From: Heptranchias perlo
Lineage: Eukaryota
NCBI RefSeq assembly: GCF_035084215.1
Contig: NC_090338.1
Location: 9,114,001 to 9,178,000, forward strand
DNA: 64,000 nt
Direction: 5' to 3'
Part shown: in pieces, positions 795 to 64,000 of the stretch
Layout: each line of letters opens with the position of its first letter
How positions within the stretch are numbered: position 1 is the first letter of the stretch
Notes under the pieces: generated by a model
Databases searched by the model: none
What the model was told of the DNA's origin: nothing
Seen by the model: the letters and a program-made list of their open reading frames with translations, nothing else
Program-made: the position numbers and the translations under genes

Positions 795-880
795 GTTCTG
801 CGCTGGATTTCTCCCTGTTGCTGTCCGCCACTGAGTACTGAAATGTGAGTGGAGAGCCTGCACACCCTCCACACAAAGAA
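795..880 (+). promoter_or_regulatory. Divergent CSE-like promoter block of Pcdh exon 1
   Basis: tgttgctgtccgccactgag..tgaaatgtgagtggagagcctgcacaccctcc aligns with tgtcgctgtccaccaatgaggtgaagatgttgagctggagatccagcaccactccc of the other four promoters; about 370 bp upstream of the ATG. Confidence 0.6.
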
Positions 881-1187
881 GCCACCTCTACATACATACA
901 CACAGCGCGCTGTGCTAACTAAAGTACAACATCGGAATTACAGATATCATTACAGTGCTACTGTCCACGTTGAGAGCAGATGGGAACAACGCTCCAATAA
1001 AAGGGAACATTTCCAGAGGACAAATGATTTTACTGAAACTATGTAAGAAATCTGAAGAATATAATGCATTCATTTAACCGCATTTGGAATAAGTTATCAG
1101 CCATTAAGTTCTGCCCGTGATTTTTTTTCACAAATTCTGTCAATAGTAATCAGAAGGCTGCAATATCTGCCCCCGACTGCCGTGGAA

Positions 1188-3752: not shown

Positions 3753-5864
3753 GTGAGCCATTTGTTTCTTCAATGATTAGTCTTTTTTAACTACACAGAT
3801 TTACTTTGTTTATTTTTAGGTTTCCATTTTGGGCTTTAAATCAACATCTGGCCCTTTTTTGCGTATTTACCTACTCATGTCACCCTACGCGGCAACTACT
3901 TTTCATCTAAGAAAAAGTTCTTAACTTCATGGGTTGTTTTTCGGTCTCATGTATTGTGCAGTTAATTGCGAACCTAACTTGAATTATTACTTCGGGTACT
4001 AACTTGATCTGACATTTATATACATCTAGCTGGTTCCTATTTCATATGATTTTTTGAAAACTGTTACAAAATAACACAGTTGAGCAGCCTAAAACTGTGC
4101 ATTATGGGGAAGGAATCAAATGTAAAACGGTTGCACTTAAAATGTTTTATTGATAATATTTTACGATGTACAAATCCTCTATTCATTATGTTAATGTAAA
4201 TTACAGTCTTCTAATAGGTACCATAATTGGATTGGTTGGGGTTTATATTTAACAACACATTATGTTTTCATTGGATGGTAATAAAGAGAGTGAGTTATAT
4301 TTGTCATCCATCTATTGACATTATTAAGCAGTTATGTCAATTAAGTTGACACATTATACTCTGATGTGCTAACAAGGAATGGGATTAGCTACTTTTCTAC
4401 TGCCATTTAAGGGACCGAAATGCGTTAAAATGTATTTTTAATGTGTATTCCAGTAAATAATTGATCATAGTACTATTCGATGCATCCTTAGAAAGGAATA
4501 AAGCGCATCGCATCCCATGCTGGCAAGTTCACAAACTTTCAGTGAATTAAGTATAATCGGTGTCACGTGTCGAACAAATAGCTTGCCATTATTTGAAGAA
4601 CGGCAGACGACCTATGGTTCTTTAAAAAACTGTTCACCAATGCAATAATGGAGAACAAGAGCTGATAATCAACTGTAGGTTAACCAATCTAGGTAAAGGT
4701 GGATCAATAAGTTTTGAGTGAATTTGTAATTTGAATTTCTATTACTGATTCCTTCCCATGTTCAACTAGATTCTTCCATACAGGCACCAAGTCAGTTTCT
4801 AAGAGGTAAATCCAGTCAGTATTATAATCTAGTTATGCAAAACAAATCTATGTGGATGGTAGTTGTTATTAAGCAAAGTGAATAGTGTAATTTGGATGTC
4901 TGTTGAGACGCACTTACGCAAGAGTTGTGAAACCAACAGCAGGAGGTAATGTCACAAAGCTTGGTTTTCCTAATACGCGTCGATGCGAAGCCAAGTTTCG
5001 AAAGGTCCAAACAGTTTTTAAGCTTAATTTTAACTGTTATCAGAGAGCCAACCACATCATCACCTTTCTCTTAATGTTCAAGTTAATCAGGATTTGGAAG
5101 CGGGTCAGTGTAGTTCTTCGTATGTATACAATTGCACATGCAAAGCGTCTCTTTGTCCCAGTAAAGAGGGGTAATTAAACCATTGGTCCTGGTCTCATAA
5201 CGTTCTCACCGCTCTTGGCCCAGATGGCTAAGTTCCATATATATATATATATATCCCTCCGCTCTCCCCGACGGTCACCTTTATGATATTGGTAAAGAGC
5301 TTTGCTGTATTCTATAATGCTAGTCACAGAATCATAGAATGGTTACAACACAGAAGAAGGCCATTCGGCCCGTCGAGGCCGGATTATGCGCAGTAATACG
5401 TTTTATCTCCACCACCAGGTGTGCTTATTCTCCGTAACCCAGACTTTAAAAAGCCCTCTGGTTCCTCCCATTCCCCTCAAGATATGGATCTTCAAATGTA
5501 CCATCGTCAATTGTGAGCTCCTAAATCTTTGTTAGTCCCAATTCACTTTTCATTGTCATTGTAATTTTGCTGCTGTTCACATTATCCCAAAGAAAAGTGA
5601 TTCTGCTTACACTTCCAATTATCCATCTTTTGCTTTTATATTGAATCTCTTTCTGGTTAATCAAATTGAGCTTCTGTTTGCCCCGTTCACTGGGTAGGCC
5701 AAACACATATATCTTACAGGCATATACCGAGTGCATTAGGATCAGTCGATGATTATCGATGGCATTGTACAATGGTATATCGGAGCCAGTCATGATCTGT
5801 GTTTCTGTGGGAAGATCTTGCCGGTAAGTTCGGCCTGAGAGTAAGCACATATAGCTGGATTAGC

Positions 5865-6747: not shown

Positions 6748-7423
6748 TTTTTTTTTATTCGTTCATGGGATGTGGGCGTCGCTGGCGAGGCCAGCATTTA
6801 TTGCCCATCGCTAATTGCGCTGAGAAGGTGGTGGGGAGCAGGCTTCTTGAACCGCTGCAGTCAGTGTGGTGAAGGTTCTCCCACAGTACTATTAGGAAGG
6901 GAGTTCCAGGATTTTGACCCAGCGACGATGAAGGAACGGCGATATATTTCCAAGTCGGGACGGCGTGTGACTTGGAGGGGAACGTGCAGGTGGTGGTGTT
7001 CCCATGTACCTGCTGCTCTTGTCCTTCTAGGTGGTAGAGGCCACGGGTTTGGGAGGTGTTGTCGAAGAAGCCTTGGCGAGTTGCTGCAGTGCATCCTGTG
7101 GATGGTACACACTGCAGCTACTTTGCGCCAGTGGTGAAGGGAGTGAATCTTTAGGGTGGTGGATGGGGTGCCAATCAAGCGGGCTGCTTTGTCCTGGATG
7201 GTGTCGAGCTTCTTGCGTGTTGTTGGAGCTGCACTCATCCAGGGAAGTGAAGAATATTCCATCCTGACTTGTGCCTTGTAGATGGTGAAAGACTTTGGGG
7301 AGTCTGGAGGTGGGTCACTCGCCACAGAATACCCAGCCTCTGACCTGCTCTTGTAGCCACAGTATTTATATGGCTGGTTTAGTTAAGTTTCTGGTCAATG
7401 GTGATCCCCAGGATGTTGATGGT
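6748..7423 (-). mobile_element. 5'-truncated copy of APE-RT LINE family B (3' end)
   Basis: Reverse tail ttttttattcgttcatgggatgtgggcgtcgctggc; ORF 6861-7325 MEYSSLPW..LDTIQDKAARLIG matches the other family B copies. Confidence 0.9.
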
Positions 7424-8266
7424 GCATGCCCACATGCAGCAAGACCTGGACAACATCCAGGCTTGGGCTGATAAGTGGCAAGGAACATTCACGCCAGACA
7501 AGTGCCAGGCAATGATCAGCTCCAACAAGAGAGAGTCTAACCAACTCCTCTTGACATTCAACGGCATTACCAACACCGAATCCCCCACCATCAACATCGT
7601 GGGGGTCACCATTAACCAGAAACTTAACTGGACCAGCCATATAAATACTGTGGCTACTATAGCAGGTGATAGGCTGGGTATTCTGTGGCGAGTGACTCAC
7701 CTCCTGACTCCACAAATACTTTCCACCATCCACAAAGCACAAGTCAGGAGTGTGATGGAATACTCTCCACTTGCCTGGATGAGTGCAGCTCCAACATTCA
7801 AGAAACTCGACATTATCCAGGACAAAGCATCCCGCTTGATTGGCATCCCTTCCATCACCCCAAACATTCACTCCCTTCATCACCGGTGCACCAGGGCTGC
7901 AGTGTGTACCATCCACAGGATACATTGCAGCAACTTGCCAAGGCTTCTTTGACAGCATCTCCCAAACCCGCGACCTCTGCCTCCTAGAAGGACACGGTCA
8001 GCAGGCATATGGGAACAACATCACCTGCATAGTCCTCTCCAAGTTACACACCATCCGGACTTGGAAATATATCGCCGTTCCTTCATCCTCGCTGGGTCAA
8101 AATCCTGGAACTCCCTACCTAACAGCACTATGGGAGAACCTTCACCACAAGGGTTGCAGCGGTTCAAGAAGGCGGCTCACCACCACCTTCTCAAAGGCAA
8201 TTATGTTTGGGCAATAAATGCTGGCCTTGCCAGCGACGCCCACGTCCCATGAACGTATAAAAAAAA
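7424..8266 (+). mobile_element. 5'-truncated copy of LINE family B
   Basis: ORF 7398-7952 (QQDLDNIQAWADKWQ..MEYSPLAW); ends gcaataaatgctggccttgccagcgacgcccacgtcccatgaac plus poly-A. Confidence 0.9.
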
Positions 8267-12539: not shown

Positions 12540-15500
12540 GAGCTACATTCACAAGATCACAAGATAATTGCAGATGAGGATGACCATACGGCCTATCTTA
12601 ATGTATTGATCCAGAAGCACCATGCACTCTCTCTATTGTAGTTTCCAATTGTTTCTTAAGTGATTCCACTACTTTATTGGGGAGTCGATTTCATGCGTTA
12701 ACCACGCCTTGTGTAAGAAAAATAAATCCTGATAGAAATCCAATATTTGCCTTTTATTACTTTTAAACTGTTTCCACCGTCCTGCTCTTGCAACTTAATT
12801 TGAAAAAAAACATTGTGGATTTTCCCTTTCCATACCTGAAATATCACCTCTAAGATACTTACTTTTAAGGCTGCAAAGCTTTAGTTTCTCTGTTGTTTCC
12901 TCATGGCTTAAAGCTCTACCATAAGGGATCAGCCACCTGGCTCTTCTCTGAAGTTCTTCCAGTGATTGCACGCTATCCTTGTGTTTCAGTGAGCAGCATT
13001 GGACACTGTAATCAAGGTGCGGTGCAACTACAGCACTATACATCTTGAACACGACATCCCATGACTGATGTTCCACTGTTTGGCTATTTAGTACAACTTT
13101 TTTTTAATTCATTCATGGGATATAGGCGTCACTGGCAAGGCCAGCATTTATTGCCCATTCCTAATCGCCCTTGAAAAGGTGGTGGTGAGCCGCCTACTTG
13201 AACCGCTGAAATCCGTGTGGTGAAGGTACTTCCACAGTGCTGTTAGGTAGGGAGTTCCAAGATTTTGACCCAGCTATGATGAAAGAACGGCGATATATTT
13301 CCACGTTGGGATGGTGTGTGACTTGGAGGGGAACGTGCTGATGGTGTTGTTCCCATGTGCCGGCTGCCCTTGTCCTTCTAGGTGCTAGAGATGCGGGTTT
13401 GGGAGGTGCTGTCGAAGAAGCCTTGGCGGGTTTCTGCAGTGCATCCTGTGGATGGTACACTGTGCAGCCACGGTGTGCCGTTGGTGAAGGGAGTGAATGT
13501 TTGAGGTGGTAGATGGAGTACCAAACAAGCGGGCTGCTTTGTCCTGGATTGTTTCGAGCTTCTTGAGTGCTGAAGCTGCACTCATCCAGGCAAGTGGAGA
13601 GTATTCCATCACACTCCTGACTTGTGCCTTGTAGATGGTGGAAAGTCTTTGGGGAGTTAGAGGTTGTGTCACTCGCCGCAGAATACCCAGCCTTTGATCT
13701 GGTCTTGTAGCCACAGTATTTATATCGCTGGTCCAGTTAAGTTTCTGGTCAATAATGACCCCCAGGATGTTGATGGTGGGGGATTTGGCAATGGTAATGC
13801 CGTTGAATGTCAAGGGGAGGTGGTTGGACTCTCTTCTGTTGGAGATGGTCATTGCCTGGCACTTGTCTGGCACGAATGTTATTTGCCACTTATCAGCCCA
13901 AGCCTGGATGTTGTCCAGATCTTGCAATATGCGGGCACAGACTGCTTCATTATCTGAGAATGGAACAGAACACTGTGCAATCATCAGCGAACATCCTCAT
14001 TTCTGACCTTATGATGGAGGGAAGGTCATTGATGAAGCAGCTGAAGATGGTTGGGCCTAGGACACTGCCCTGAGGAACTCCTGCAACAATGTCCTGGGGC
14101 TGAGATGATTGGCCTCCAACAACTACTACCATCTTCCTTTGTGCTAGGTATGACTGTAGCCACTGCAGAGTTTTCCCCCTGATTCCCATTGACTTCAATT
14201 TTACTAGGGCTCCTTGGTGTCACACTCAGTCAAATGCTGCCTTGATGTCAAGGGCAGTCACTCTCACCTCACCTCTGGAACTCAGCTCTTTTGTCCATGT
14301 TAGGACCAAGGCTGTAATGAGGCCTGGTGCTGAGTTGTCTTGGAGGAACCCAAACTGGGCATCGGTGAGCAGGTTATGGTGAGTAAGTGCCACTTGATAG
14401 CACTGTCGACGATACCTTCCATCACTTTGCTGATGATTGAGGGTAGACTGATGGGGAAGTAATTGGCAGGATTGGATTTGTCCTGCTTTTTGTGGACAGG
14501 ACATTCCTGGGCAATTTTCCACAATTTCAGGTAGATGCCAGTGTTGTAGCTGTACTGGAACAGTTTGGCTAGAGGCGCAGCTAGTTCTGGAGCACAAGTC
14601 TTCAGCACGACAGCTGGGATGTTGTCGGGGCCCATAGCCTTTGCTGTATCCACTGCACTCAGCCATTTCTTGATATCACGTGGAGTGAATCGAATTGATT
14701 GATGACTGGTTTCTGTGATGGTGGGGATATCGGGAGGAGGCCAAGATGGATCATGCACTCGGCACTTCTGGCTGAAGATGGTTGCAAACGCTACAGCCTT
14801 GTCTTCTGCACTCACTTGCTGGGCTCTGCCATCATTGAGGATGGGGATGTTCACAGAGCCTGCTCCTCCCATTCGTTGTTTAATTGTCCACTACCATTCA
14901 CGACTGGATGTGGCAGGACTGCAGAACTTTGACCTGATTCATTGGTTGTGGATTTGCTAAATCCTGTCTATGGCATGTTGCATCCGCTGTTCAGCATGCG
15001 TGTAGTTCTGTATTGTAGCTTCACCAGTTTGTTACCTAATTTTTAGGTACCCCTGGTGCTGCTCCTGCTTTACTCTTCTACACTCCTCATTGAACCAAGT
15101 TTGATCCCATTGCTTGTTGGTAATAGGAGAGTGAGAAAATGCCAGGCCATGAGGTTACAGATTGTGCTGAAATACAATTCTGCTGCTGCTGATGGCCCAC
15201 AGCGCCACATGGATGCCCAGTTTTGAGATGCTAAATCTATCCCATTTAGCACGGTGTTGATTGTTGCTCTGCATTGGTCGGATATGTTCAGTGTTGAGTC
15301 TACTAAGACTGCGATGTCTCTTTTAGCTTCGTCCTTAAATATTATCTTCCTATTTTCAGTATTTTGCATTTTTTTGAATAATTATTTTCTGCCATCGTCT
15401 ACCACACGCATCTTTTGTTGAACTCATTCTATAATTTCTGAGCTGCTTCCTCTGATTCCACAGCCCCTCCCAGTTTGATGTCAGCAACACATTTAACCAG

Positions 15501-19459: not shown

Positions 19460-20877
19460 CTTTAAAAGGGAGAAAGAGATAGACCGAGTAATTATAGACC
19501 AATCAGTCTAACCTCGGTGGCGAGCAAATTATTGGAATCGATTCTGAGGGAAAGCATAAATCATCATTTAGAAAGGCATGGGTTAATCAAGGACAGTCAA
19601 CACGGATTTGTTAAGGGAAAGTCCTGTCTGACTAACTTGATTGAATTTTTTGAGGCAGGTAACAAGGAGGGCCGATGAGGATAAGCGTTTGATGTTGTGA
19701 ACATGGATTTTAGCAAGGCTTTTGTCAAGGTCCCACATGGCAGACTGGTAAAAAGTAAAAGCTCATGGGATCCAAGGGAAAGTGGCTATTTGGATCGAAA
19801 ATTGGCTAAGTGGCAGGAAGCAAAAGTAACGGTTGACGGGAGTTTTTGGGAATGGAAGGCTGATTCCAGTGGGGCCCTGCAAGGCTCAGTACTAAGTCCC
19901 TTGCTTTTTGTCGTACATATTAATGATTTGGACTTGAATGTGTGGGGCTTGATCAAGAAGTTTGCAGATGATACAAAAATTGGCCATGTGGTTGATAGTG
20001 AGGAGGAAAGCAGGCAGAAAGTTATCAATGGACTGGTCAGGTGGGCAGAAAAGTGGCAAATGAAATGCAATAAAGAGAAGTGTGAGGTAATGCATTTGGG
20101 GAAGGCAAACAAGGCAAGGGAGTACACAATAAGTGGGAGGCTACTGAGAGGTGTAGAGGAACAAAGGGGCCTTGGAATGCATGTCTACAGATCCCCGACG
20201 GTAGCAGGACAGGTAGATAAGGTCGTTAAAAAGGCATACGGGATACTTTCCTTTATTAGCCAAGGCATAGAATATAAGAGCAGAGAGGTTATGCTAGAAC
20301 TGTAAAAAATCATTGGTTAGGCCACAACTTGAGTACTGCATATAGTTCTGGTCACTACATTACAGGAAAGATGTGATTGCACGAGAGAGTTTACAGAGGA
20401 GATTTACGAGGATGTTGCCAGGGCTGGAGAATTTTAGTTATGAGAAAAGATTGGATAGGCTGGGGTTGTTTTCTTTGTAACAAAGGAGGCTGAGGGAGAT
20501 TTAATTGAGGTATATAAACTTATGACAGGAATAGATAGAGGGGATAGGGAGGACATACTTCCCTTAGCAGAGGGGTCATTGACCAGGGGGCATAGATTTA
20601 AAGTAATTGGTAGAAGGATTAGAGGGGAGCCGAGGAGAATTTCTTTTTCACCCAGAGGGTAGTGGGGGTCTGGAACTCACTGCCTGAAAGGGTAGTAGAG
20701 GCAGAAACCGTCAACTCATTTAAAAAGTACTTCGATGTGCACTTGAAGTGCTGTAATCTACAGGGCTAGGGACCAAGTGTTGGAAAGTGGGATTAAGCTG
20801 GATAGCTCTTTTTCGGCCGGCACAGACACGATGAGCCGAATGGCCTCCTTTTGTGCCGTAACTTTCTATGATTATAT
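19460..20877 (+). mobile_element. CR1 LINE, 5' truncated, frameshifted RT
   Basis: ORF 19697-20305 MDFSKAFVKVPH..QGSVLSPLLF..KFADDTK; CR1 3' tail ggccggcacagacacgatgagccgaatggcctcc..ttctatgatt. Confidence 0.9.
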
Positions 20878-27129: not shown

Positions 27130-27320
27130 TAAGGTTGGACAACGTTAATTATACCAGTAATACTGAAGGTGTTCAATAGAGGCACTGTTGCATTAAGAGT
27201 ATTTGGTGCTATTATTGGTCGGGTCTCTTTGTGTCGCTGTCCACCAATGAGGTGAAGATGTTGAGCTGGAGATCCAGCACCACTCCCTCAAAACCAAACA
27301 CTGCGCAGCATCAGAGAACC
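27130..27320 (+). promoter_or_regulatory. Pcdh promoter with conserved sequence element (CGCT box at 27235-27238)
   Basis: attattggt..tctttgtgtCGCTgtccaccaatgagg..ctggagatccagcaccactccc is conserved upstream of four paralogues; the CGCT-core CSE is established for clustered Pcdh promoters. Confidence 0.85.
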
Positions 27321-27534
27321 AGCCGGACTCATTTCCACACTCTCCATTCATTCTAAAAATGGACCTTGAGAAAACTAAGGATATTTGTATAAATCTTGTT
27401 GACTATTCTCTTCAAAACAACTAGTCGTCGGACGCAAAACGTAGATCTTAATGTGGCAAATAAGGTAATGAAGAATTATGTTCTCAGTACAATACTAAAT
27501 ACCGTACAATTTATTGACTCCTATTCGTACAGAA

Positions 27535-29997
27535 ATGGCCTCCTTCATGAATCGCTGCGTGTCACAATGGCAATGTTTATATTTAATAGTCGTATATATT
27601 TCAAATTCAGTTTGTGGGAACATTCGCTATTCAATTTCTGAAGAATTAGAACTTGGTGCCTTTGTTGGGAATATTGCTAACGATCTAAGGTTAGATGTAA
27701 ATCAACTGTCTGCTCGCAGGTTTCGGACTGTAACCGACCATAAAACGCAATACCTAGACGTTAATTTAAACACCGGAGCTTTGTTCATAAAAGAGAAAAT
27801 CGACAGGGAACAGCTTTGTGAACAAAGGCTCACGTGTGTACTGATGTTGGAAGCCGTGATGGAAAATCCTCTAAAGCTATACAGTTTTGAAGTTGAAATT
27901 CTAGACATAAATGACAATCCGCCCGTATTCCAAAAGAGCCAAATGCGTTTGGAAATTTCAGAAAGTGCATCACCGGGAACACGCTTCAGGCTTCAAAACG
28001 CGCATGACCGGGACGCCGGAACTAACAGTGTCCGCACCTACGAAATCAGTCAAAATGAGCACTTCGTTTTAGAATTACGAAGAGAAAGAATAGTTGCTCC
28101 GGAGTTAGTCCTTCAGCGACCTCTCGATCGAGAACAGCAGCCCACTCATCAGTTAACACTGACGGCGATTGATGGAGGCACCCCTCAGAGATCTGGAACC
28201 ACCCTGATCACCATTAATGTATTTGACATAAACGACAATGCACCAGTTTTTGAACAAAGCGTCTATCAAATCACCATTGCAGAAAACGTACCAAAAGATA
28301 CTTTGATTATGAAACTAAATGCACTAGATATGGACGAGGGCCAAAATGGTGAAATAATATATTCTTTTAGCGACCATACTCCCGACAGAGTACGTAATAC
28401 ATTTAGCTTGGATTCGAGAAACGGAGAAATTAGAGTAACTGGAACTGTGGATTTCGAAGAAGCACATGAATATCAGATTTGCGTAGAAGCTAAGGACAGA
28501 GGTCCGGATGCAGCGCCAGTATATTGTGAAGTTCTGCTAAAGATTGCAGATGTTAACGACAACGCCCCTGAAATTATAGTGAGCTCCATGTCCAGTCCAA
28601 TCCCAGAAAACGCTTCCCTGGGGACGGCGGTAGCTCTTTTAAAAGTAACAGACAGAGACTCTGAAGAAAGGGGAGATGTTACCTGCCACATTAGCAAAAA
28701 TACTCCCTTCAAGCTTGATAGTTCTTTTAATAATTACTACACACTGGTCGTCGATGGTGATATAGATCGTGAAGAAGTGTCCGACTATAAGATTAACATT
28801 TCATGTACTGATGCTGGCTCACCCCCGCTCTCCAGCTACAGAACAATCCCAATTGAACTTTCCGATATTAACGACAACACACCATCCTTTATGCAACCTT
28901 CATTCACAATGCATGTGACGGAGAATAATGCTGTTGGCAAGTCCATCGGTTCTGTGCCAGCGTTTGATCCAGATTCAGATCAAAATGCTTACTTGACTTA
29001 CACCATTTTGGATACCTTTATTCATGGCATGCCTACATCCACGTTCACCTCGATCAGTTCAGCCAATGGTGTGATGTTTGCGCAGCGCTCTTTTGATTAT
29101 GAGCAAATCAAAAAATTTCAAGTCCATGTGCAAGTAAAGGATGCTGGATCCCCTCCGCTTAACAGCACTATAACTGTGAATGTGATTATCGTCGATCAGA
29201 ATGATAATGTCCCTGTGATCCTATTGCCCTTGTCAAATAGAGGTTCCTCAGCAGAGGAGACAATGCCCAGATCTGCTGATCCGGGTTATTTAGTTGCTAA
29301 GGTGACAGCCACTGATGCTGATTCTGGTCAAAACGCTCAACTCTACTATCAATTACTTCAACCTACCGATGAAAGTCTGTTTACTGTGAGCCCTGAAACG
29401 GGAGAAATCTGGACCATCCGGCGTTTTGGGATCCAAAGCTCACGAAGGGAAAAAATCGTAATCCTGGTAAGGGATAATGGTAAGCCATCACTTTCATCCA
29501 CAACCACCATCAATTTGACAGTGTTGGATGAAGATACAGAAAATCCTTCAAATGTTGGTATGTTGGCGAACCCTGGACGATGGACATCTGATTTAAGACG
29601 TTATTTAATCATATCTTTTGGCACAATCTCTATCATTTTTCTACTGCCAATTATAATCCTCTCCATAAAGGTCCATAAAGGAAGGAATGCAATGAATGGT
29701 CACAGGTGCTCTTGGACGATACCATTTTCTTTTCTGTGGAGGAATTCGTCGCGTGGAATTGAAAAGGCTAGCATAAATCTCCCAATACCACCGCATTATG
29801 CAGATAACGAGACTGCTTCTGAAACATTTCGCTATGATGTGTGTCAAACTTTGAATTCAGACATGAAAGATTTCATGTTCGTGAAGTTACATGGCCCAAC
29901 CGCACCCACAATTAACATCAAGACTGGCGCATGTATGGCGAGTGTTAATGGAAATGCATCCGATTCTATCATGGCGGTAACGACTGAATCCCACGAG
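27535..29997 (+). CDS. PCDH: Clustered protocadherin variable exon 2
   Basis: ORF 27514-30057, ATG in gaaATGgcc context at 27535; six cadherin repeats, TM YLIISFGTISIIFLLPIIILSI; phase-0 donor GAG|GTGAGA at 29997/29998. Confidence 0.95.
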
Positions 29998-32759
29998 GTG
30001 AGATATATATTGAGGTTCAGCGCGCATATATTCTCCATGAATTTAAGCTGCCCATAATAAATCAGTGGTGTTTTTAAGTAGTTCAGCCTGCAGAGCTCCC
30101 TTTATCGCCATTATCTATTGAACCACTGGGGTTCTGAATGTATGCCACTTCAGAGATCCGGGACAAAGAACATAAATTGTGTCCTTGTACATGTAAGATG
30201 CTCTTTTATATATCAATATGTTCTTTCGTATATCACTAGCCTTCAGTTCTCCCCCCACCAGCCACCACCATCTTTTCGGTTCTCCAGTTATCAGTTCAGT
30301 TATGCCAATTTGGAGGCCTTGGTAGCAAGTCTAGCTTTACTCCCCAAGGTTTAGTAACCTTTCTCATTCCGTTAGGCAACCTTCGGCCTTCGATATCTGT
30401 GAGTAAACTCGTTTTTCGTTCCTTTTCGTTCTTTGCCCGTGTTAGTGTTTTAAAATTGAATATTCATTTGTTTATCTTGTTTGGTTAAAATGCCCCCTAT
30501 TCATGTTCCCTGGCTGATTTCTTTTTTGCATGAGTTGGAAGTTTTTATAGCTGATATGGAGTGATATACTTCCACGGTCGAATTTAAATTGTTGCAGTGC
30601 CTAATTGGATGGGTAGCCTTTTCCTGTATTTTTGGGGCTAATTTGCTGTGCTTATTTCGTAATTGGTTATCTACAATCGGTACACTCGTGGTGGAGATGG
30701 ATCATGCAGTATGTTACTATTTCTCATTTGCCCTTTTTGAGGGTCTTGTCGCTTGCACCTTTGGTTAAGGCTCAACCCCTTTCAGTTGCAGTCTTGTGGC
30801 TCTCTCCAGACATACACTGCCATTTTCACATTTAGCGAAATCTGTTACCTGGTGCTTTCTGCAGGATAACCCAAATATCCCTGTTTCGACATACATGAGT
30901 TTGGATGAGTGCCGTGACTTAGATCCTTTAAAGTTCTGTCACCTCTACCTTTCCTTCAAGAGAAATGTTTCTAGTTTCCCTTTGTTTGCAGCGTTATTAC
31001 AAAGCTGCTTCAATCTTCCCACGCTGGTCATTTTTGCTCCCTCTCCTTCCCTTTGATTACCACCCCCCCAAAAAAAAAATGCTGGAAACGACTTTACTTT
31101 ATGGTATATGCATTTTCCTTAGTACTACAGTATTGCTGAAAATTAAGCTCCATTATAAAAATAGAACAGTTAAAGTTTCAAATTGCGGAGTGCGTGATGA
31201 TGAAATATATGAAGTAGAAAGTCTTAGAACGCACTGCAGGTCCCACATGTATCTCATCGACCTAACAAACAGCTGCCATCAATCATTCTTGATGGCTATA
31301 CCGTTAGTCCATTTTCATGCGCAAGCATTCCTTGCCTTCGAATCTCCGTTGACCTCAGATGGCCGTCATACCTCTTCAGCATCGCAAAACACTGCGTTAA
31401 AAAGGCTACGGTTTTTTGTTCTTGCACAGAACGTTTTTGCTTCAATGGCTCTTAACGCTCTATAAAAACAAGGCCAGTTCAAAGTTGAATGCTGTTCCCT
31501 TATTTGGAGAGTCTCTTTTAGCACATCTATTACACTGCTGGACAGGACACAAAAAATATTTCAATGTAATCGGCCATCCCATGCTCCCTATGACCCCCAA
31601 CCTCTTTCTTTCTGTCCCGTCATCACATCTTTCCTGACTGTTTCGATTTTATACATAGAATTTCGGTCAACATTGTTCTGAAATTTCATCTTTTGTGCTT
31701 TCTAAACTTCAAATATCTGCCTTATATGCTCTTTCTCGTCCCGGTAATCCTACTTTGTTGAAATCAAGATTCATCCTGCTCTAACGTAGTTGTTCCCAAT
31801 AACTCAAAACTGTAGAACTTCTTATTTCCCTCAGTTTTGTTTCTGCATCCACAATTTTCAGTTTTAAAAGCCTAAGTTTGGTTTCAGTAAATTATTACTT
31901 CATGATTTATCCCTTCCTCTCAACTTTGATGGCTTTCTCCAATATGGGCACTGAAAGAAAGAATTATTAAAATCCATTATTGCTAAAAATGCAGCTTCCG
32001 TATTTTCAATACAAAATGAACTCTGTTTTATATCACCTTTATATGTGGATACCTGGCCAGTTCTAAAGGTACTAGTTATAAACAAGTGACTGTTCATAGT
32101 TTAACTGGCACAGCTAAGTTTTTTAGTATATACTTATTAATCTTATAAATTACAATTTGTACGAGTTAGGAACCAATAGAACCAAATGACACGGTCTGCA
32201 TTTGAAGGGTGTGTGTGTGTGGAGGGTGTGGGGGTGGTGGGGGGGCGGTGGGGGTGGTACTCAAAACGAATCTGTGGAAACATTCTTTCAGCGAGCGAGT
32301 GGTAAATCTATGGAGGATGCTTCATAGGGACGTGGAAGCAGAACGTGTTGATTCATTCAAATGCAAATTAACAGATTTATTCAAAAAATAATATTTTGGA
32401 AAACAGTATATGATTAATTCGAAGCGTAACATATGCTAAGTGCAGCATACTTGGGAAGAACATTGACTTTGTAATAAAACTTTCCAGACTGAGGGTTTCC
32501 TCGCCTCATGTCTGAGCCTGTTGTAAACTAATTGATAGAGATTGATTGCCATGATACGTCAACAATTCTATTATTATTGTATCACGTGACTACCAGGATA
32601 GTAGCAGGCGAACTATATGGACCTTGGTCTCTTTTTGTGTAGCAATTCTTATGTTCCTATAGGAACAATCTGGAGAACATATTAATAAGCCCACATTTGA
32701 GCTTTACAATGTTAAACCAAATTGTTAGCACAGATCTGTTTGAGAATATCAAAAGGTTC

Positions 32760-34230
32760 AGCATGTACTTTGGTATAGAGAGTATAATTTCAAAGTTTGC
32801 AAATGACATGGAACTCGGAAATGTAATCAACAATGTGAAGGATAGTAAAAGACTTCAGGAGGACATAGACAGACAGGTGAAATGGGCAAACACATGGCAG
32901 AAAAAAAATAACGCAGGGAAGTGTGAAATGATACATTTTGGTAGGAAGAATGAGGAGAGGCAATATAGGGTGCAGGAACAGAGACACCTGGGGGTGCACA
33001 TACACAAGTTGAGAAGGCTATTTAAAAAAACATATGGGATCGTGGGCTTCATTAATAGAGGCATAGAGTACAAAAGCATGGAAATTATGCTCAACCTTTA
33101 TAAAACTCTGGTTAGGCCGCAGCTGGACTGTTGTGTTCAATTCTGGGCACCACGATTTAGGAAGGATACCAAGGCCTTAGTTGGGTGTAGAAGAGATTTA
33201 CTCGAATAGTAAAAGGGATGTAGGGATTTTAGTTATATGGAGACACTGGAGAAGCTAGGCTTGTTCTCCTACGAACAGAGACATTTAAGGGGAGATTTGA
33301 TAGAAGTGTTCAAAATCCTGAACGGTTTTGATAGAGTAAATAAGGAGAAATGGTTTCCAGTATCAGAAGGGTCGGTAACCAGAAGTCACAGATTTAAGAT
33401 GATCGGCAAAAGAGCCATAGGCCACATGAGGAAACATTTTTTTATGCAGCGAGTTGTAATGATCTGGAATGCACTGTCTGAAAGGGTGGTGGAAGCAGAT
33501 TTAATAGTAACTTCCAAAAGGGAATTATATAAATATAAGCAGGGAATGGGACTAATTGGATAACGCTTTCAAACAGCTGGCACAGGCTTGATTGGCTGAA
33601 TGGGATAGATTGGGGAGCTTTAATGATGAGTGGCAGATGTAACTCTATGTAGAAAAATGCGAAGTATTGAGGTGGAGAAAGGATAATGGACAGTGGCAAT
33701 ACAAGAAGAAATGATATTATTATACAGGATAGGTCACAGGAGAAGAATGTGAGAGTGCTGCTGGCAGTGGGTGCAGTGAATAGCGACTGACTTAACCACT
33801 GGGACAAGGCACCTGAATTATGAGAAGTTCTGCAGAAGCTGGAAATGTATAATTTCAAGAGAAGGCTCAGGGATTATCTTACTGAAGTCTTGAAGATCCA
33901 AGAATATAACCATAAAAGCCAAAATGTAAAAATGGTTACAGATTCTACAACATGATGGCAAAGCTTCAAAATTCGATTAGAAAGGACGAAGAAGCAATTT
34001 AGGTCCAACTTTTTAACGCAGAAAGTGTTCACTGCATAGAATGAACCAGCAAGATAACCAGTGAAGGTCGATTGTATTAGCAAATTCAAGGGAATTCAAT
34101 AAACACCTGCGGGAGTGGGGGTTACAGAGGGAGATGAAAGATCTTTTGTGATGTAATGCGATGTGATCTACCCCCTGCGACGACCAGATGGACTGCAATG
34201 GTCTTTTCCGGTCCTGTACATTCTTATATT
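32760..34230 (+). mobile_element. Two adjacent degenerate CR1 3' portions
   Basis: ISKFANDMELG..LQEDIDR, LYKTLVRPQLDCCVQFWAP, LRGDLIEVFKI; a second decayed copy follows at about 33600-34230. Confidence 0.8.
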
Positions 34231-38239: not shown

Positions 38240-38430
38240 TAAAGTTGCACAACGATAAATATGCCAAGTCATCCTAATCGTGTTTCAAAGAAGGCACCTT
38301 TGCTTTAAAAGTGCTTGTTGTTATTATTGGTTGAGTCTTTTTGTGTCGCAGTCTACCAATGAGGTGAAGAAATACGGCTAGAGATCCATCACCACTCCCC
38401 CAACACCAAACATTAAGCAGCACCCAGAAC
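38240..38430 (+). promoter_or_regulatory. Promoter of the Pcdh pseudogene; CSE core altered to CGCA
   Basis: attattggttgagtctttttgtgtCGCAgtctaccaatgagg..gagatccatcaccactccc. Confidence 0.8.
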
Positions 38431-38657
38431 CCATAGCACGCACTATTCCATATTTCCCAGTTACGTAGGAGAATAGGCGTAGGGAATTCTAAGGGGAACC
38501 GTAGAAATAATATTGGGCGATTCTAATCCTTGCAGCCTAAGTGTTGTTCTTCATCTGAAAAAGCAAGGTAATCAATAATTATCTGCTTGAAATAATACTA
38601 AATGCCGTAAATTATGGACACATCGAGCAGTTGTATTTACGGTAGTTTGGTCCCGTG

Positions 38658-41072
38658 ATGGCCGACCTGCTAAATTGCCTGATGCCACAATGGCGATTTA
38701 AAAAAAAATTATACTCCTCTGCATTTCGGTCTCAGTTTATAGAAATATTCGTTGTTCAATCTCTGAAGAATTGGAGCTTGGTGCCTTTGTTGGAAATATT
38801 TCTCAGGACCTGGACTTAGATGTAAGTCAGCTATCCACTGCGTCTGAATACAAGAAGAAGTATGTGGACGTGAACTTAAAAATGGAATATTACTCACAAA
38901 TGAAAAAATAGACAGGGAACAGCTTTTTGCGTACAGCCTCGGCTATGTGTTGCTTTTAGAGGCAGTGATATAAAATCCGCTAAAGGTAGATCGTATTGAA
39001 GTTGAGATTAGCAACATAAATGCCAACTCGCCTGTATTCGAGAGGAATGAATTTTGTTTAGGAATCTTGGAATTTGCCTCGACTGGTGAGCGTTTCCCAC
39101 AAAGAGCGCACATGAGCCGGAAGCCGGGACCAACAGAGTCCATACTTACCAGCTCAGCAAAAATGAACACTTCACTTTGGAACTACAAACGGACGGCGAA
39201 CAAACTGTGACCGCCGAGTTAGTCCTTGAACGACCTCTAGACCGGGAACATCAACCAATCCAGCAGTCAACCTTGACTGCGATTGATGGAGAAACGCCTG
39301 TGAGGTCAGGAACAACCCAGATTATTATTAGCATTTTTAAATATAAGCGACAATAAAACGATTTTCGAACAGAGCATCTATCAAATCGTCATTGCAGAAA
39401 ACCTACCAAAAGGATCTTTAGTGGTAAAGCTAAATGCCGTGGATTTGGACGGTGGACTAAATGGTGTGGTAACCTATTCTTTCAGGGAGTACACTCCAGA
39501 TAAAGTGCAGTGCCCTTTTAGTCTGGACTCCAGATCCGGAGAAATTTAAGTAACTGGCATAGTTGATTTTGAAGAGGAACAGAATTATGAGATTTTCCTA
39601 CAAGCTTAGGACAGAAGCCCAGCCGCTAAGCCAGTATACTCTAAAATTGTTAAAGGTTGCTGACAATAATGATAGCGCACCTGAAGTAAAGATAATATCC
39701 GCATCCAGTTCGATCAGAGCGCACACATTTGGGAAGCACAGTAACTCTTTTAAAAGTAACGGACCTCGAATCAGAAGAGAGGGGAAATGTTAACTGTTAC
39801 GTTGCCAGAAACAGTGCCTTTAAGCTTGATAGCTCCTTTAATAACTACCACAGTGATCACTGATGGCCACCTAGATCGTGAAAAGGTAACTGAGTACAAT
39901 ATTACCATTGTATGTTGGGATGCAGGCTCTACTCCACTCTCAACTCACAAACTCAACTCAGGTGTTAGATATAAACGATAGCGTGCCCGCTTTACGCAGT
40001 CTTAATTTACTACGTGTGTGACAGAAAATAACGATGTTGGTAAGTCTATTGGTTCGGTAACAGCATTTAATCCAGATTTGAGTCAAAATGGCCTTCTTTC
40101 TTATTCCATTCTGGACAGTCTGGTGCATGGCATGCCTGCGCCAACTTTCTTCACAATCATTTCAGCCAATGGTATGATGTTTGCGCAGCGCTCTTTTGAT
40201 TACGAGCAACTGAAAAATGTTCAAGTCTTTCTGGATATTATGGATACTGGATCCCCTCGGCTCAACAGCTACGTAACTGTGAATATGATCATCGTAGATC
40301 AGAATAAAAACGCCCCTGTGATCCTATCGCCCTTGTCAAATAGAGGTTCCGTAGCAGAGGAGACAATGCCCAGATCTGCGGATCCAGGTTACTTGGTTGC
40401 TAAGGTGACAGCGACAGATGCTGATTCTGGTCAGAACGCTAAACTTCACTACCAATTTCTACAGCCCATTGATGAAAGTCTGGGAACGGGACACATCTGG
40501 ACTATCCGCCGCTTTGGGATCATCGATTTGCTCAAAAAAACCTCGTAATTTTGGTGAGGAACAATGGAAAACCTTCACTTTCATCCACAGTCATTATCGA
40601 TTTGTCAGTGTCAGACAGTCATATAGAAACTGCACCCAATGTTTGTATGTTGGGGAACTCTGGACCATGGACACCTGATTTACGCCTTTATTTAATCATA
40701 TTTTTTCCATAATTTCGCTCGTTTTTCTCGCGGTTACTGTCATCTTTACCTTTAAGTTTCACAAAATTGCACATGGAATTAACGGTTATTTTTTGCTCTT
40801 GTGCCAAGCTATTCTGCCATATGTCCAGAGATTCACAAAAAGCTAGTATAAACCTTCCAATGCCACCACATTATACAGGCAACGAGACTCTTCCTCAAAA
40901 ATTGCGCTATGAAGTGCGCCCATCTTCAGATTCAATCATGAATGAATTAATGTATCTAAGCCTAAATGGGTCAACGGCACCCAAGATTCATATGAAGACT
41001 GGCGCATGCGTAGCTGAGGAAAATGGACACAGAACACATTCTAGGATTAACAAAACCACTGAGTTCCCTGAG
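38658..41072 (+). pseudogene. PCDH: Protocadherin variable-exon pseudogene
   Basis: Full-length homology from ATGGCC (38658) to GAG|GTGAGA (41072). Frameshift near the A9 run at 38700-38708, in-frame stops (about 38971 and 39547), small deletions. Residual ORFs 40018-40548 and 40767-41135 match the paralogues. Confidence 0.9.
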
Positions 41073-41194
41073 GTGAGATATGCCTTACGAGTTTATAGTT
41101 CTATGAGCCTATACTCCTCAATCAGTTTAAAGTGACAATGGTAATTTGTGAGCTTATTGAATTACTCCGCCTACACTGTTCAACTAAACTATAA

Positions 41195-46409: not shown

Positions 46410-46570
46410 TAAGATTGCACAACGTTAAATATTACTGCTTTAAGAAGGGTTGGTGTTATTATTGGTCGAGTCTCTTTGTGTCGCTGTCTACCAATAAGGT
46501 GAAGCAATGTGGCTGGAGATCCAGCACCACTCCCACTACACGAAACACTACGCAATATCCGAGAATGAAC
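46410..46570 (+). promoter_or_regulatory. Pcdh promoter with CSE (CGCT at 46482-46485)
   Basis: attattggtcgagtctctttgtgtCGCTgtctaccaataagg..ctggagatccagcaccactccc; 303 bp before the ATG. Confidence 0.85.
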
Positions 46571-46784
46571 AGCACATATTTTTTCACGTTCTCCGTTTAT
46601 GCCTGAGAGGGCACCTTAGGATCTAACGAAGCTTTATTTAAGTCGTCCTGTCGATTCTTAGCAAACGAACTTTGGACTTAATATAGGTCTTCATCCGGAA
46701 AAGGAAGGTAGCGAACAACTAAGCTCTGGTGTACAATTTATCGGCGTCTTTGGCAGTAATATTGGTTGCGGGCTTTGTCTAGGA

Positions 46785-49235
46785 ATGGCCTACTTACGGC
46801 AAATTCTTTATTTGATACTTGTCTACGTTTCACATTCAGTTTATGGGGACGTTCGCTATCCAATTCCTGAAGAATTGCAGGATGGTGCCTTTGTTGGAAA
46901 TATTGCTAAGGACCTGGGGCTAGATGTACGACAGCTGTCCGCTCGCAAGTTTCGGATTGTATCTGAAAATCAAAAGCAATACCTGGGCGTGAATTTTAAC
47001 AACGGAATTCTGTTCATAAATGAGAGAATAGACAGGGAACAGCTTTGCGAACAGACCCTCGCGTGTGTATTGACTTTGGAATCTGTTGTAGAATATCCTC
47101 TTAAACTGTACCGTGTTGAGGTTCAGATTCTCGACATAAATGACAATCCACCCGTATTCCAAAGAAGCGAGAATCGCTTTGAAATATCAGAAATGGCATC
47201 GCCCGGAGCGCGCTTCCCACTTCAGAGCGCGCACGACCCTGACTCCGGAACCAACAGCGTCCGCAACTATCGACTCAGCCCAAGTGAGCATTTTATTTTA
47301 GATCTACAATCAAATAGCGAGCAAATTGTCACGGCAGAGTTAGTCCTACAGCAACCCCTAGACCGAGAGCAGCAAGCCACTCATCGGTTAACATTGACAG
47401 CAATTGACGGAGGCTCCCCGACGAAATCTGGAACCTGCCAGATTATAATAATTGTATCTGATGTAAATGACAATGTACCGGTTTTCGATAAGAACGTGTA
47501 TCGAATTGTCATTGCAGAGAACGTACCGAAAGGTTCTTTGATAGCGAAAATTAATGCTACGGATTTGGACGAAGGTACAAATGGTGAGTTGATATATTCT
47601 CTCAGTGACAACACTGCCGATAGAGTACGTAAACTGTTTAGCATAGAGTCCGAAAACGGAGAGATCAGAATAAATGAAATGGTGGATTTCGAAGAAGCAC
47701 AGAATTATGAGATGACGGTGCAAGCGAAAGACAAAGGGCCTGCGGCAGTGCCCGCGTACTGTAAAGTTCTAGTAAAAATTACTGATGTTAATGATAATGC
47801 TCCCAGAATAATGTTAACTTCTGTGCACAGTTCGATACCAGAGGACGCCTCAGCAGGGACTTTAGTAGCTACTTTGAAAGTAACGGACCGTGATTCCAAA
47901 GAAAGGCAGGTTGTTCATTGTCACGTCTCCAAAAATGTCCCCTTTAAGCTTGATAGCTCTTTTACTAACTATTACACAGTGGTCACCGATGGTGACATAG
48001 ATCGTGAAACGATGCCTGAGTACAACATTACCATTACATGTACAGACACGGGCAAACCCCCGCTTTCCACTAACAAAACCATCTCAGTTCCAATTTCGGA
48101 TGTAAACGACAACGCACCACGGTTTACGCGATCTTCCTTTACTATGTACGTGACGGAAAATAATGCCATTGGTGCCTCTATTGGATTTCTATCAGCGATT
48201 GATCCAGATTTAAATCAAAATGGCCGACTGTCGTATTCCATCCTGGATAGCCTTGTTCATGGCGTGCCTGTGCCCACGTTCGTCTCAATCAATTCCGCCA
48301 GCGGCGTGATGTATGCGCACTGCTCTTTTGATTACGAACAGGTCAATAATTTTCTGGTTTCTGTGCAAGCAAAGGACGCTGGATCCCCTCCGCACAGCAG
48401 CTACGTAACTGTGAATGTGATCATCCTCGATCAGAATGATAATGCCCCTGTGATCCTATCGCCCTTGTCAAATAGAGGCTTCGTAGCAGAAGAGATAATG
48501 CCCAGATCTGCCGATCCAGGTTACTTGGTTGTTAAAGTGACAGCTACAGACGTCGATTCTGGACAGAACGCCCATCTATTTTATCAACTTCGTCAGCCCA
48601 CCGACGAAAGTTTGTTTACAATGGCATCTGGGACGGGAGAAATCTGGACCATCCGCCGCTTTGGGATGAAGGATTCGCTCAAACAGAAACTCGTTGTCGT
48701 GGTCAGAGACAATGGAAAACCTTCACTTTCATCGACAGTCAGTATCAACTTATCAGTGTTGGATATTGATAGAGAAAGTGCATCTAACGTCGCTATGTTG
48801 GGAAACTCTGGACCATGGACGCCTGATGTAAGGCGTTATTTGATCATATCTTTTGGCACAATCTCGTTCGTTTTTCTTGTGGCTATTGCAATCCTCGCCA
48901 TTAAGGTTCAGAAAGGTGCACGTGGAGATCATGGCTACTGTTGCTCCTGCGGCATGCCATTCTGCTTCAAGCGAAAAGATTCGCTGCAAGGAGTTCAAAA
49001 GACCAGTGTAAACTTTCAACTCCCAGCCAATTATACAGATGTGTACGAACGGGAGACGGTCCCTCAAACATTTCACTATGACTTATGTCCAACTTCAAAT
49101 TCACCCATGAATGACTTCATGTTTTTAAAGTTACATGGTCCAGCGGCACCCATGATTAATATCAAAACTGGCTCGTTATTAATGGAACAAAATGGAAAGG
49201 AATCCAATTGTAAGGATACCATTCAATCACACAAG
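46785..49235 (+). CDS. PCDH: Clustered protocadherin variable exon 3
   Basis: ORF 46785-49268; six cadherin repeats, TM YLIISFGTISFVFLVAIAILAI; phase-0 donor AAG|GTGAGG at 49235/49236. Confidence 0.95.
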
Positions 49236-62604: not shown

Positions 62605-62790
62605 TAAGATTGCACAACATTAAATCCATCAAATCATCCTACTAGGGTCCAGTATAGGATGACTGCTTTAAGAGTGTTTGGTGCTATTATTGGTTGAGTC
62701 TCTTTGTGTCGCTGTCTACCAATGAGGAGATGAAATGTGGCAATAGATCCAACACCACTCCCATGAAACGAAACACTGCGCAGCACTGGA
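62605..62790 (+). promoter_or_regulatory. Pcdh promoter with CSE (CGCT at 62710-62713)
   Basis: attattggttgagtctctttgtgtCGCTgtctaccaatgagg..agatccaacaccactccc. Confidence 0.85.
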
Positions 62791-63032
62791 GAACAAACAA
62801 CGTTCATTGCTCCGTGTCCTCCATTTACGTCTTAGAGTGGCCTTGAGGCATTTTAAGACGATTTTTATAAAGAGTCCTGGCGATTCTAACCAAAACAATT
62901 CACCAGTGCACAGAACGGAGCGTTTGATCTCGAAACGCAAGGTAATAAACAATTGTGTTCTTCAAATAATACGAACTGTGATCAGAATTATCGTTCTATC
63001 CGACAACCGTTTTTTACTGTTCTCCTTCAGAA

Positions 63033-64000
63033 ATGGCCGATTTCATTAATTACCGGTTGTCAAAATGGCAAGTTCTTTGTGGAATACTTGTGTACATTTC
63101 GGATTCAATTTGCGGGGACATTCGCTACTCCATCCCCGAAGAATTAGAGCGTGGCGCCTTTGTTGGGAACATTGCTCGGGATTTGGGATTAGATCTGGCA
63201 CAGCTCGCGGCTCGCAGATTTCGGATTGTATCTGAACGCAAAGTGAAATACCTGGACGTGAGTTTCAAAACAGGAACATTGGTCATAAGTGAGAAAACAG
63301 ACAGAGAACAGCTTTGCCAACAAGCCCTGAAATGTTTAATGAGGTTGCAGGCCGTGGTTGAAAATCCGGTCAAGCTGTATCGTGTTGAAATTGAGATTAC
63401 TGATATAAATGACAATTCGCCCGTATTCGATAGAAGTGAATTCCGCTTAAATATCTCAGAAATGACGTCGCCCGGAGCGCGCTTCATGCTCCAGAACGCG
63501 CATGACCCGGACGCCGGGACCAACAGTGTCCGCACCTATCAACTCAGCCACAGTGAACACTTCGTTTTGGATCTACAATCAGATATGGAGCAAAGCCACA
63601 CACCCGAGCTGGTCCTTGAGCAACCACTCGACAGAGAACAGCGACCTTCTCATCGGTTAACGCTGACGGCGATTGATGGAGGAACCCCTCGCAGAACCGG
63701 AACCACACAAATTATCATCACCGTCATTGACGGGAACGATAATACGCCGGTTTTCGAACATGATGTCTATGAGATCACAATTGCAGAAGACGTACCGATA
63801 GGTGTTTTGATGTTGACGGTAAAAGCCATTGATGTGGACGAAGGCCTAAATGGTGAGGTGTTCTATTCTTTCAGTGACCGTACCCCCGATAGTCTACGTA
63901 AGGTATTCAGTGTGAATTCTGAAAGCGGAGAAATAAGAGTAATTGGTAACCTGGATTACGAAGAAACGCAAGATTATCACATTTCTGTACAAGCTAAGGA
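63033..64000 (+). CDS. PCDH: Clustered protocadherin variable exon 5 (partial, runs off the window)
   Basis: Hand translation from ATG 63033: MADFINYRLSKWQVLCGILVYISDSICGDIRYSIPEELERGAFVGNIARDLGLD..., open to the window end through EC1-EC3; absent from the ORF track because there is no stop. Confidence 0.92.
   Translation, partial: MADFINYRLSKWQVLCGILVYISDSICGDIRYSIPEELERGAFVGNIARDLGLDLAQLAARRFRIVSERKVKYLDVSFKTGTLVISEKTDREQLCQQALKCLMRLQAVVENPVKLYRVEIEITDINDNSPVFDRSEFRLNISEMTSPGARFMLQNAHDPDAGTNSVRTYQLSHSEHFVLDLQSDMEQSHTPELVLEQPLDREQRPSHRLTLTAIDGGTPRRTGTTQIIITVIDGNDNTPVFEHDVYEITIAEDVPIGVLMLTVKAIDVDEGLNGEVFYSFSDRTPDSLRKVFSVNSESGEIRVIGNLDYEETQDYHISVQAK

What the first reader, a model, noticed from the sequence alone, without database searches (positions are those of the whole stretch)
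27465..27532. Candidate conserved 5'UTR micro-intron ending 2 nt before the ATG of each variable exon
Seen: AAG|GTA donors at 27465 (GTAATG), 38568 (GTAATC), 46708 (GTAGCG) and 62942 (GTAATA). YAG acceptors lie exactly 2 nt before the ATG at 27532 (tcctattcgtacag|aaATG), 46782 (ctttgtctag|gaATG) and 63030 (tttttactgttctccttcag|aaATG). Introns would be 68, 75 and 89 nt with diverged interiors. Established: clustered Pcdh variable exons are normally first exons with no acceptor, which underlies the promoter-choice splicing model. Inference: these genes have a leader exon and an acceptor-bearing coding exon, so a leader or upstream exon could splice to a different variable exon. That would add a second layer of isoform choice. 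Exon 1 has a weaker candidate (GTAAGA 1043 to AG 1146/1153).
Basis: partly seen in the sequence, partly recalled or inferred. Interest (0 to 1): 0.75.

Follow-up and report, generated by a model that had tools for sequence, protein, structure and literature searches.

The report
Short leader intron in shark protocadherins
One group of shark brain cell-identity (protocadherin) genes keeps a conserved splice-donor motif 70-90 bases before the start codon, and in most copies a splice-acceptor-like site just before it, so these copies likely carry a tiny non-coding intron, while two copies that lost the acceptor are seen unspliced and nothing shows the proposed mixing of leaders between genes.

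Summary
The coordinates are right, but the title ('each variable exon') overreaches. The window holds part of a shark clustered-protocadherin locus. Of its five variable exons, three (ATG 27535, 46785, 63033) have donor and acceptor; 38658 is a pseudogene with the donor only; 1188 has no usable acceptor. In the 13-gene subcluster, A[AG]G|GTA is in 13 of 13 copies and is the most conserved 7-mer of the leader (0 of 150 neutral simulations reach it). YAG ends 2, 1 or 0 nt before the ATG in 10 of 13; it scores as an acceptor in 8 of 12 intact copies against 0 of 58 other genes, but AG conservation alone is not significant (P 0.17). Contigs from two studies run unspliced through the motif in the two copies that lack the AG; no AG-bearing copy could be tested. 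Best reading (0.55): a likely subcluster-specific 68-90 nt 5'UTR intron, lost where the AG was lost. Main rival (0.25): an unpaired U1 site. Cross-gene leader splicing has no support and would make no new protein (0.05).

The parts
27230..27247 (+). CSE (CGCT box) and CCAAT of the promoter of gene 27535
   Evidence: CSE naming from PMC4978886 passages
27462..27470 (+). Donor-like site AAG|GTAATG; holds an upstream ATG at 27468 heading a 57-codon out-of-frame ORF that overlaps the start codon
27465..27532 (+). Predicted 68-nt 5'UTR intron; acceptor TCCTATTCGTACAG (score 8.2, 98th percentile of window AGs), TTGAC branch-like motif with A at -16
   Evidence: splicing not shown
27535..29997 (+). 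Variable exon, ATG to predicted 3' donor GAG|GTGAGA
38342..38354 (+). CSE variant of the pseudogene
38565..38573 (+). Donor-like site AAG|GTAATC with no AG before the ATG at 38658
38658..41090 (+). Variable-exon pseudogene (stops, frameshifts)
46477..46494 (+). CSE and CCAAT of gene 46785
46708..46782 (+). Predicted 75-nt 5'UTR intron (donor 5.4, acceptor 5.1; competing AG 28 nt before the ATG, 4.4)
   Evidence: splicing not shown
46785..49235 (+). Variable exon, ATG to predicted 3' donor AAG|GTGAGG
62705..62722 (+). CSE and CCAAT of gene 63033
62942..63030 (+). Predicted 89-nt 5'UTR intron; strongest acceptor of the group (11.3, 99.9th percentile)
   Evidence: splicing not shown
63033..64000 (+). 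Start of variable exon (continues beyond the window, L003)
1040..1153 (+).

Best explanation
The conserved AAG|GTA motif is likely a real splice donor that would pair with the acceptor-like AG just before the same gene's start codon, removing a predicted 68-90 base non-coding intron in the copies that keep the AG, whereas the two copies that lost the AG are seen unspliced across it. Steps: (1, shown) every gene of this 13-member subcluster has its own CSE/CCAAT promoter block and the donor motif 226-240 nt after the CSE; (2, shown) 10 of 13 have YAG within 2 nt of the ATG; (3, inferred) U1 binds this first donor and the short intron is removed by intron definition to the home acceptor, fully or in part; (4, inferred) the 2.45-kb variable exon then becomes exon 2 and joins the single constant exon through its stronger 3' donor (that join is shown for the AG-less copies); (5, inferred) the benefit is an early splice signal for a very long first coding exon and removal of the upstream ATG inside GTAATG (8 of 13 copies), not new proteins. 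Promoter choice still decides the isoform.
For: Donor in 13 of 13; changes per column at -3..+4 total 2 over 7 columns against a mean of 2.0 per column, i.e. the peak sits on the U1-pairing register; 0 of 150 neutral simulations reach the 7-mer's conservation, 2 of 150 give any run of 4 invariant columns; GT kept in 13 of 13 in 0.2% of 1500 simulations. AG near the ATG scoring >=3 in 8 of 12 intact copies against 0 of 58 other genes (13 of those 58 have an AG there, all scoring <3). Three deep lineages have acceptors of 8.2, 9.6, 11.3, against 8.8 for the constant-exon acceptor used in contigs. All 10 are YAG though the distance to the ATG shifts. AG plus pyrimidine tract jointly P 0.013. Lengths 68-90 nt in the 10 AG-bearing copies. 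The only change at donor -2 is in the AG-less pair, and the other AG loss is the pseudogene (single events). A sawshark-labelled orthologue of the pair reads ..VRPEM where this genome has ..VRP*M, so the G was probably ancestral (inference from a protein model).
Against: No spliced junction was seen for any copy. In the two AG-less paralogues contigs of two studies bridge the whole candidate without gaps (X1 705-3363, X4 679-1301 on L012; donor 815, ATG 901) and no joint leaves 814: the donor persists there without visible use, although other AGs lie 59-71 nt downstream. AG retention alone is not significant (P 0.17; pyrimidines P 0.10; P 0.056-0.105 by expected losses) and a purine at -3 is favoured by start-codon context anyway (own knowledge). 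The donors lack +5 G and score 5.3-7.5, below the 3' donors of the same exons (9.8-12.5). The six middle copies have weak tracts (-1.1 to 5.4) and earlier AGs; 2 of 10 AG-bearing copies have no branch-like motif in range and most others have it upstream of an earlier AG. The interior is no more diverged than the leader (65% vs 64%). In gene 27535 splicing would put a weak-context upstream ATG (-14) into the same overlapping frame (arithmetic). Splice scores use a matrix recalled from memory.
Confidence: 0.55

Rival explanations
1. The motif is an unpaired U1 landing site near the 5' end that would protect the long variable-exon transcript from early termination; it is not spliced in any copy and the AG is a by-product of start-codon context.
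For: Donor far more constrained than acceptor; kept and read through in the AG-less pair; the sister subcluster keeps a separate AG|GTA[TC] motif in 13 of 19 genes at a similar distance from its CCAAT box with no AG at the ATG; a 5' splice site blocks Restrictor independently of splicing (PMC12211998, passages).
Against: That paper speaks of strong 5' sites and these are moderate. It does not explain tracts scoring 8-11 in three deep lineages or 8 of 12 against 0 of 58. The largest subcluster has a donor >=5 in only 6 of 27 leaders, so such a site is not required.
Confidence: 0.25
2. The block is a DNA or RNA factor-binding element of the promoter/leader that only looks like a donor.
For: Weaker conservation continues beyond the U1 window (+7/+8, +10 to +14, +17 to +20); the leaders hold other conserved blocks at 0.86-0.89.
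Against: The peak is exactly -3..+4; the TAAT core is broken in 2 of 13 copies that keep GTA; it leaves the acceptor enrichment unexplained. No factor was identified.
Confidence: 0.12
3. One reading: leaders splice at a meaningful rate to another gene's variable exon (or straight to the constant exon), uncoupling promoter from isoform.
For: Donors and acceptors exist in most copies; in scorpion sDscam multi-exon cassettes give some between-cassette joins (15 of 264 junction types were not neighbouring joins; PMC4835542 passages).
Against: No such joint in tables 5 and none among the 20 of 92 loose ends shown (contigs drop rare forms, so this is weak). Home acceptor 68-90 nt away against 8-24 kb. 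Leader non-coding: same proteins. A leader-to-constant join has no in-frame ATG.
Confidence: 0.05
4. Chance resemblance inherited from one ancestral gene, under no constraint.
For: All copies are paralogues, so the pattern arose once.
Against: Tree length 2.6 changes per site; retention of G|GTA in 13 of 13 in 0 of 1500 simulations, 0 of 150 for the 7-mer. Gene conversion was not modelled.
Confidence: 0.03

Closest known systems
Vertebrate clustered protocadherins (mammalian Pcdh-alpha/gamma; elephant shark delta, epsilon, mu, nu subclusters)
   Same: Tandem ~2.45-kb variable exons, each with a CSE promoter and a 3' donor, spliced to a shared constant region (PMC7811963 and PMC4978886 passages).
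   Different: Here a conserved donor, and in most copies an acceptor-like AG, lie in the leader; CSE to ATG is about 305-330 nt (about 200 in mouse and frog); the constant coding part is one 49-codon exon ending in a stop, not three exons. Which elephant-shark subcluster this is could not be fixed (Yu 2008 not held).
Chelicerate sDscam 5' cassettes
   Same: Promoter per cassette, cassettes of two or more exons, mostly joined within the cassette, with a minority of between-cassette joins and intron retention (PMC4835542 passages; PMC9258826 search listing only).
   Different: Unrelated gene family; the cassette exons are coding, so cross-joins change the protein, which a non-coding leader cannot.
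Non-clustered delta-1 protocadherins with a small or non-coding first exon before a large ectodomain exon (PCDH1, PCDH9, PCDH11; recalled, from no call)
   Same: An intron in front of a very large ectodomain exon.
   Different: Single genes, long introns, no promoter choice; not tested here.
Promoter-proximal 5' splice site / U1 protection (telescripting, Restrictor)
   Same: A donor motif in the first few hundred transcribed bases of a gene with a long first coding exon (PMC12211998 passages).
   Different: Shown in mammalian cells for strong sites; these sites are moderate and no function was tested.

Membership tests
Clustered protocadherin variable exon | Single large exon for ectodomain, membrane span and short tail, in a tandem array | tested here: met
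   ORFs of 827-862 aa; 103 of 110 matches lie in tandem on C14 7.68-9.50 Mb, + strand; cadherin Pfam domains on the identical protein P0001
Clustered protocadherin variable exon | Own CSE-type promoter element upstream | tested here: met
   TGTGTCGC[TA]GTC in 13 of 13
Clustered protocadherin variable exon | 3' donor spliced to a shared constant exon | tested here: met
   X2 and X4 contigs leave L012 at 3363 into letters that match once in the genome, C14:9328611, behind a tract and AG; shown for the last two paralogues, inferred for the window genes
Clustered protocadherin variable exon | Variable exon is the first exon (no upstream intron) | tested here: inconclusive
   Unspliced form present for the 2 AG-less copies; not testable for the 10 AG-bearing copies
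U2-type spliceosomal 5'UTR intron | GT donor under constraint at U1-pairing positions | tested here: met
U2-type spliceosomal 5'UTR intron | YAG acceptor with pyrimidine tract | tested here: inconclusive
   YAG in 10 of 13; strong in 3, moderate in 2, weak in 5; constraint on AG alone P 0.17, with tract P 0.013
U2-type spliceosomal 5'UTR intron | Branch point 18-40 nt before the AG | tested here: inconclusive
   Loose motifs only, positions not conserved
U2-type spliceosomal 5'UTR intron | Removed from mature RNA | not testable with these tools
   No contig covered an AG-bearing leader in the two lays allowed; for the AG-less pair only the unspliced form was seen
Leader/cassette cross-splicing system (sDscam-like) | Junctions joining one gene's first exon to another gene's exon | tested here: inconclusive
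   None listed, but contigs drop rare forms and most loose ends were not shown
Elephant shark mu or nu subcluster | Constant domain orthologous to a named subcluster | not testable with these tools
   Paper not held; search with the constant peptide gave 2 shark proteins, neither so named

The most novel reading that the evidence does not exclude
In this elasmobranch subcluster the variable exon is an internal exon behind a non-coding leader, and leaders splice at a real rate to downstream genes' acceptors, so that a neuron's isoform is set by promoter choice plus 3' splice-site choice; the sister subcluster (donor in 13 of 19, weak AG 59-68 nt later) may do the same.
Probability: 0.06. Interest if true: 0.75.

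Novelty: new variant of a known kind. Interest (0 to 1): 0.4.

Why it matters
The standard model holds that each clustered-protocadherin variable exon is a first exon whose cap-proximal donor is joined to the constant exons; one paper read here says this had not been validated experimentally (PMC4835542). A subcluster whose first donor belongs to a tiny leader intron, with natural AG-bearing and AG-less copies side by side, would be an exception and a ready comparison for how the variable exon's donor is chosen. If only the unpaired-U1 reading holds it is a neat but minor promoter feature. I found no mention of such an intron in nine searches, but the key shark and splicing papers are not held, and public RNA-based annotations of shark UTRs could not be seen.

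Tried and rejected
No RNA holder listed for 27200-30100; the four runs are guessed RNA and kept as contigs. Lay on 27200-30100: bins 27394-27490 had no cover and no joint was listed at the candidate, which is no evidence either way; its long 'skips' come from paralogue contigs. In one search the 603-988 'joint' comes from another gene's contig (L039; loose ends matched) and is not a splice. No silent stretch was laid as a DNA control; flanking bins were near empty, a weak check only. Gaps in X2 cover upstream of 824 prove nothing. Exon-1 candidate rejected. A conserved uORF as the reason for the motif: rejected, the ATG is in 8 of 13 and ORF lengths run 13-57 codons. N-termini of 54 and 36 database proteins gave no sign of a spliced leader; two NCBI models that fuse exons (P0001, P0121) look like prediction artefacts, and P0121 enters gene 9213021 about 54 nt before the ATG, not at the ATG-proximal AG. 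Earlier notes of the scan: nothing relevant. Papers not held: Yu 2008, Wang 2002, Wu 2000, Wu 2001, Chen 2013; Tasic 2002 seen only as a citation. No supplements were read; those of the shark papers may show UTR structure. No structure or complex prediction was run (not relevant). Minus strand: no ORF or recognisable signal at the motif by inspection; no antisense test was possible.

Full report
Setting. The window is G000:C14:9114001-9178000; a search with the first 100 residues of the gene at 27535 gave 110 matches, 103 of them in tandem on C14 between 7.68 and 9.50 Mb. A protein identical over 98% of the query is labelled Heptranchias perlo by NCBI, and close relatives come from other sharks and rays. 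I fetched 80 stretches, leaving out about a dozen mostly broken copies; with the window they gave 92 exon starts, of which 70 intact ones with a plausible ATG were scored. The window's genes at 27535, 38658, 46785 and 63033 are the first four of a 13-member group (C14:9141535-9316089) whose 12 intact members form one clade; the gene at 1188 belongs to another lineage.

Observation. But 38658 is a pseudogene with no AG and the exon-1 candidate has no usable acceptor. Across the group the motif A[AG]G|GTA is in 13 of 13 copies, 226-240 nt after the CSE; the AG ends 2 nt before the ATG in 3, 1 nt in 6, 0 nt in 1 and is missing in 3: the pseudogene and the last two genes, which read CCATAAATG.

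Is it more than chance? For the donor, yes. Leaders and candidate introns are about 64-65% identical on average and 45-68% between deep lineages. AAGGTAA is the most conserved 7-mer of the 262-column leader alignment; 0 of 150 neutral simulations with indels and realignment reached it, and 2 of 150 had any run of four invariant columns. Changes total 2 over positions -3..+4 against a mean of 2.0 per column, with weaker conservation further in. GT survived in all 13 tips in 0.2% of 1500 simulations. For the acceptor the case is weaker: AG retention alone P 0.17, pyrimidine content P 0.10, both P 0.013. Against the rest of the locus, however, an AG within 3 nt of the ATG scoring 3 or more occurs in 8 of 12 intact members and 0 of 58 other genes. 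The acceptors of 63033, C14:9285563 and 27535 score 11.3, 9.6 and 8.2, against 8.8 for the constant-exon acceptor; the donors score 5.3-7.5 against 9.8-12.5 for the same exons' 3' donors. All scores use a vertebrate matrix recalled from memory; gene conversion was not modelled.

RNA. Only assembled contigs of four guessed-RNA runs (two studies) were available. The lay on gene 27535 did not cover the candidate. Mismatch counts showed that the long contigs belonged to the last two paralogues, so the second and last lay went on L012 (donor 815, ATG 901). An X1 contig aligns 705-3363 with 158 differences and no gap and stops matching at the variable exon's 3' donor (its last 27 letters were not shown); an X4 contig aligns 679-1301 with no gap; an X2 contig covers 824-1037 without difference; no joint leaves position 814, and none of the 20 of 92 loose ends shown lies there. 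X2 and X4 contigs leave at 3363 into a sequence found once in the genome, 10 kb downstream, the start of a constant exon of 49 codons, so these runs hold spliced RNA. Hence in the two AG-less copies the unspliced form is present and no spliced form was seen; contigs cannot prove absence. This is what an intron predicts where the AG is lost, and also what an unpaired donor predicts; it does not test the window's genes.

How it most likely works. Shown: promoter block, donor, YAG, variable exon, strong 3' donor, constant exon. Inferred: U1 takes the first donor and a 68-90 nt intron is removed to the home AG, wholly or partly, most plausibly in 63033, 27535 and C14:9285563; the variable exon is then exon 2. 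The leader is non-coding, so proteins are unchanged; splicing would remove the upstream ATG inside GTAATG (8 of 13 copies; in 27535 it heads a 57-codon ORF overlapping the start) and give an early splice signal. Two single events fit coupling of the sites: the only donor -2 change is in the AG-less pair, and the pseudogene lost the AG; a sawshark-labelled orthologue model suggests the pair once had the G. I give this 0.55.

Rivals. An unpaired U1 site (0.25) fits the stronger constraint on the donor, the read-through, and a separate AG|GTA[TC] motif in 13 of 19 genes of the sister subcluster with no AG at the ATG; a 5' splice site can block early termination without splicing (PMC12211998, passages). 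It leaves the strong tracts unexplained. A factor-binding site gets 0.12, chance 0.03.

Comparison. These are clustered-protocadherin variable exons by every tested feature except 'first exon', which is open. Reviews read in passages (PMC7811963, PMC7339444, PMC4978886, PMC2926608, PMC2764143, PMC1852091, PMC7335077) describe promoter, large exon and constant exons and showed no leader intron under my search terms; nine searches found none. The elephant-shark paper and the original splicing papers were not held, and no supplements were read. The nearest working analogue is chelicerate sDscam, with multi-exon cassettes and a minority of between-cassette joins (PMC4835542, passages); non-coding first exons in delta-1 protocadherins are recalled, not checked.

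Verdict. A real, constrained feature of one subcluster; probably a short 5'UTR intron in some copies; splicing unproven; the second layer of isoform choice unsupported. New variant of a known kind, interest 0.4.

Noticed in passing
L019-L031 (C14:9396159-9500383), 112-122 nt before each ATG: The sister subcluster has its own donor-like motif AG|GTA[TC] in 13 of 19 intact genes, about 186-204 nt after the CCAAT box, mostly followed 59-68 nt later by a weak AG; a second candidate micro-intron or U1 site, not at the aligned position of the finding's donor.
   Followed up: partly
L081:1501-1650 (C14:9328611): The constant coding region of this subcluster is one exon of 49 codons ending in a stop; the same tail is on shark and ray proteins. 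Mammals have three constant exons.
   Followed up: partly
L039 (C14:8956754-8957150): Contigs of X2 and X4 from the last gene of the upstream group run across its CSE with 255 or more letters before it: possibly a start site or exon upstream of the CSE.
   Followed up: no
window 38342-41090: Variable-exon pseudogene that keeps its promoter block and donor motif; an NCBI model (P0001) wrongly appears to fuse its pieces onto gene 27535.
   Followed up: partly
L011, L012 (C14:9298937, 9316089): The last two genes before the constant exon are 96-98% identical in promoter, leader and coding start: recent duplication or gene conversion.
   Followed up: no
window 1188-3776: First gene of the region groups with the single genes at C14:7685139 and 7898987 and a gene on C1, not with its neighbours, and has a variant CSE; whether it uses the same constant exon is unknown.
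   Followed up: no
window 7398-7952, 13385-14872, 19703-20305, 32709-33209, 51718-53504, 56385-58417: ORF fragments that look like reverse-transcriptase pieces of LINE retrotransposons (label from recall, not searched).
   Followed up: no
upstream of all genes in L001-L031: A shared promoter layout GCTTTAAG - ATTGG - (CSE) - CCAAT - GATC; the sister subcluster keeps it but lacks the CGCT core.
   Followed up: no
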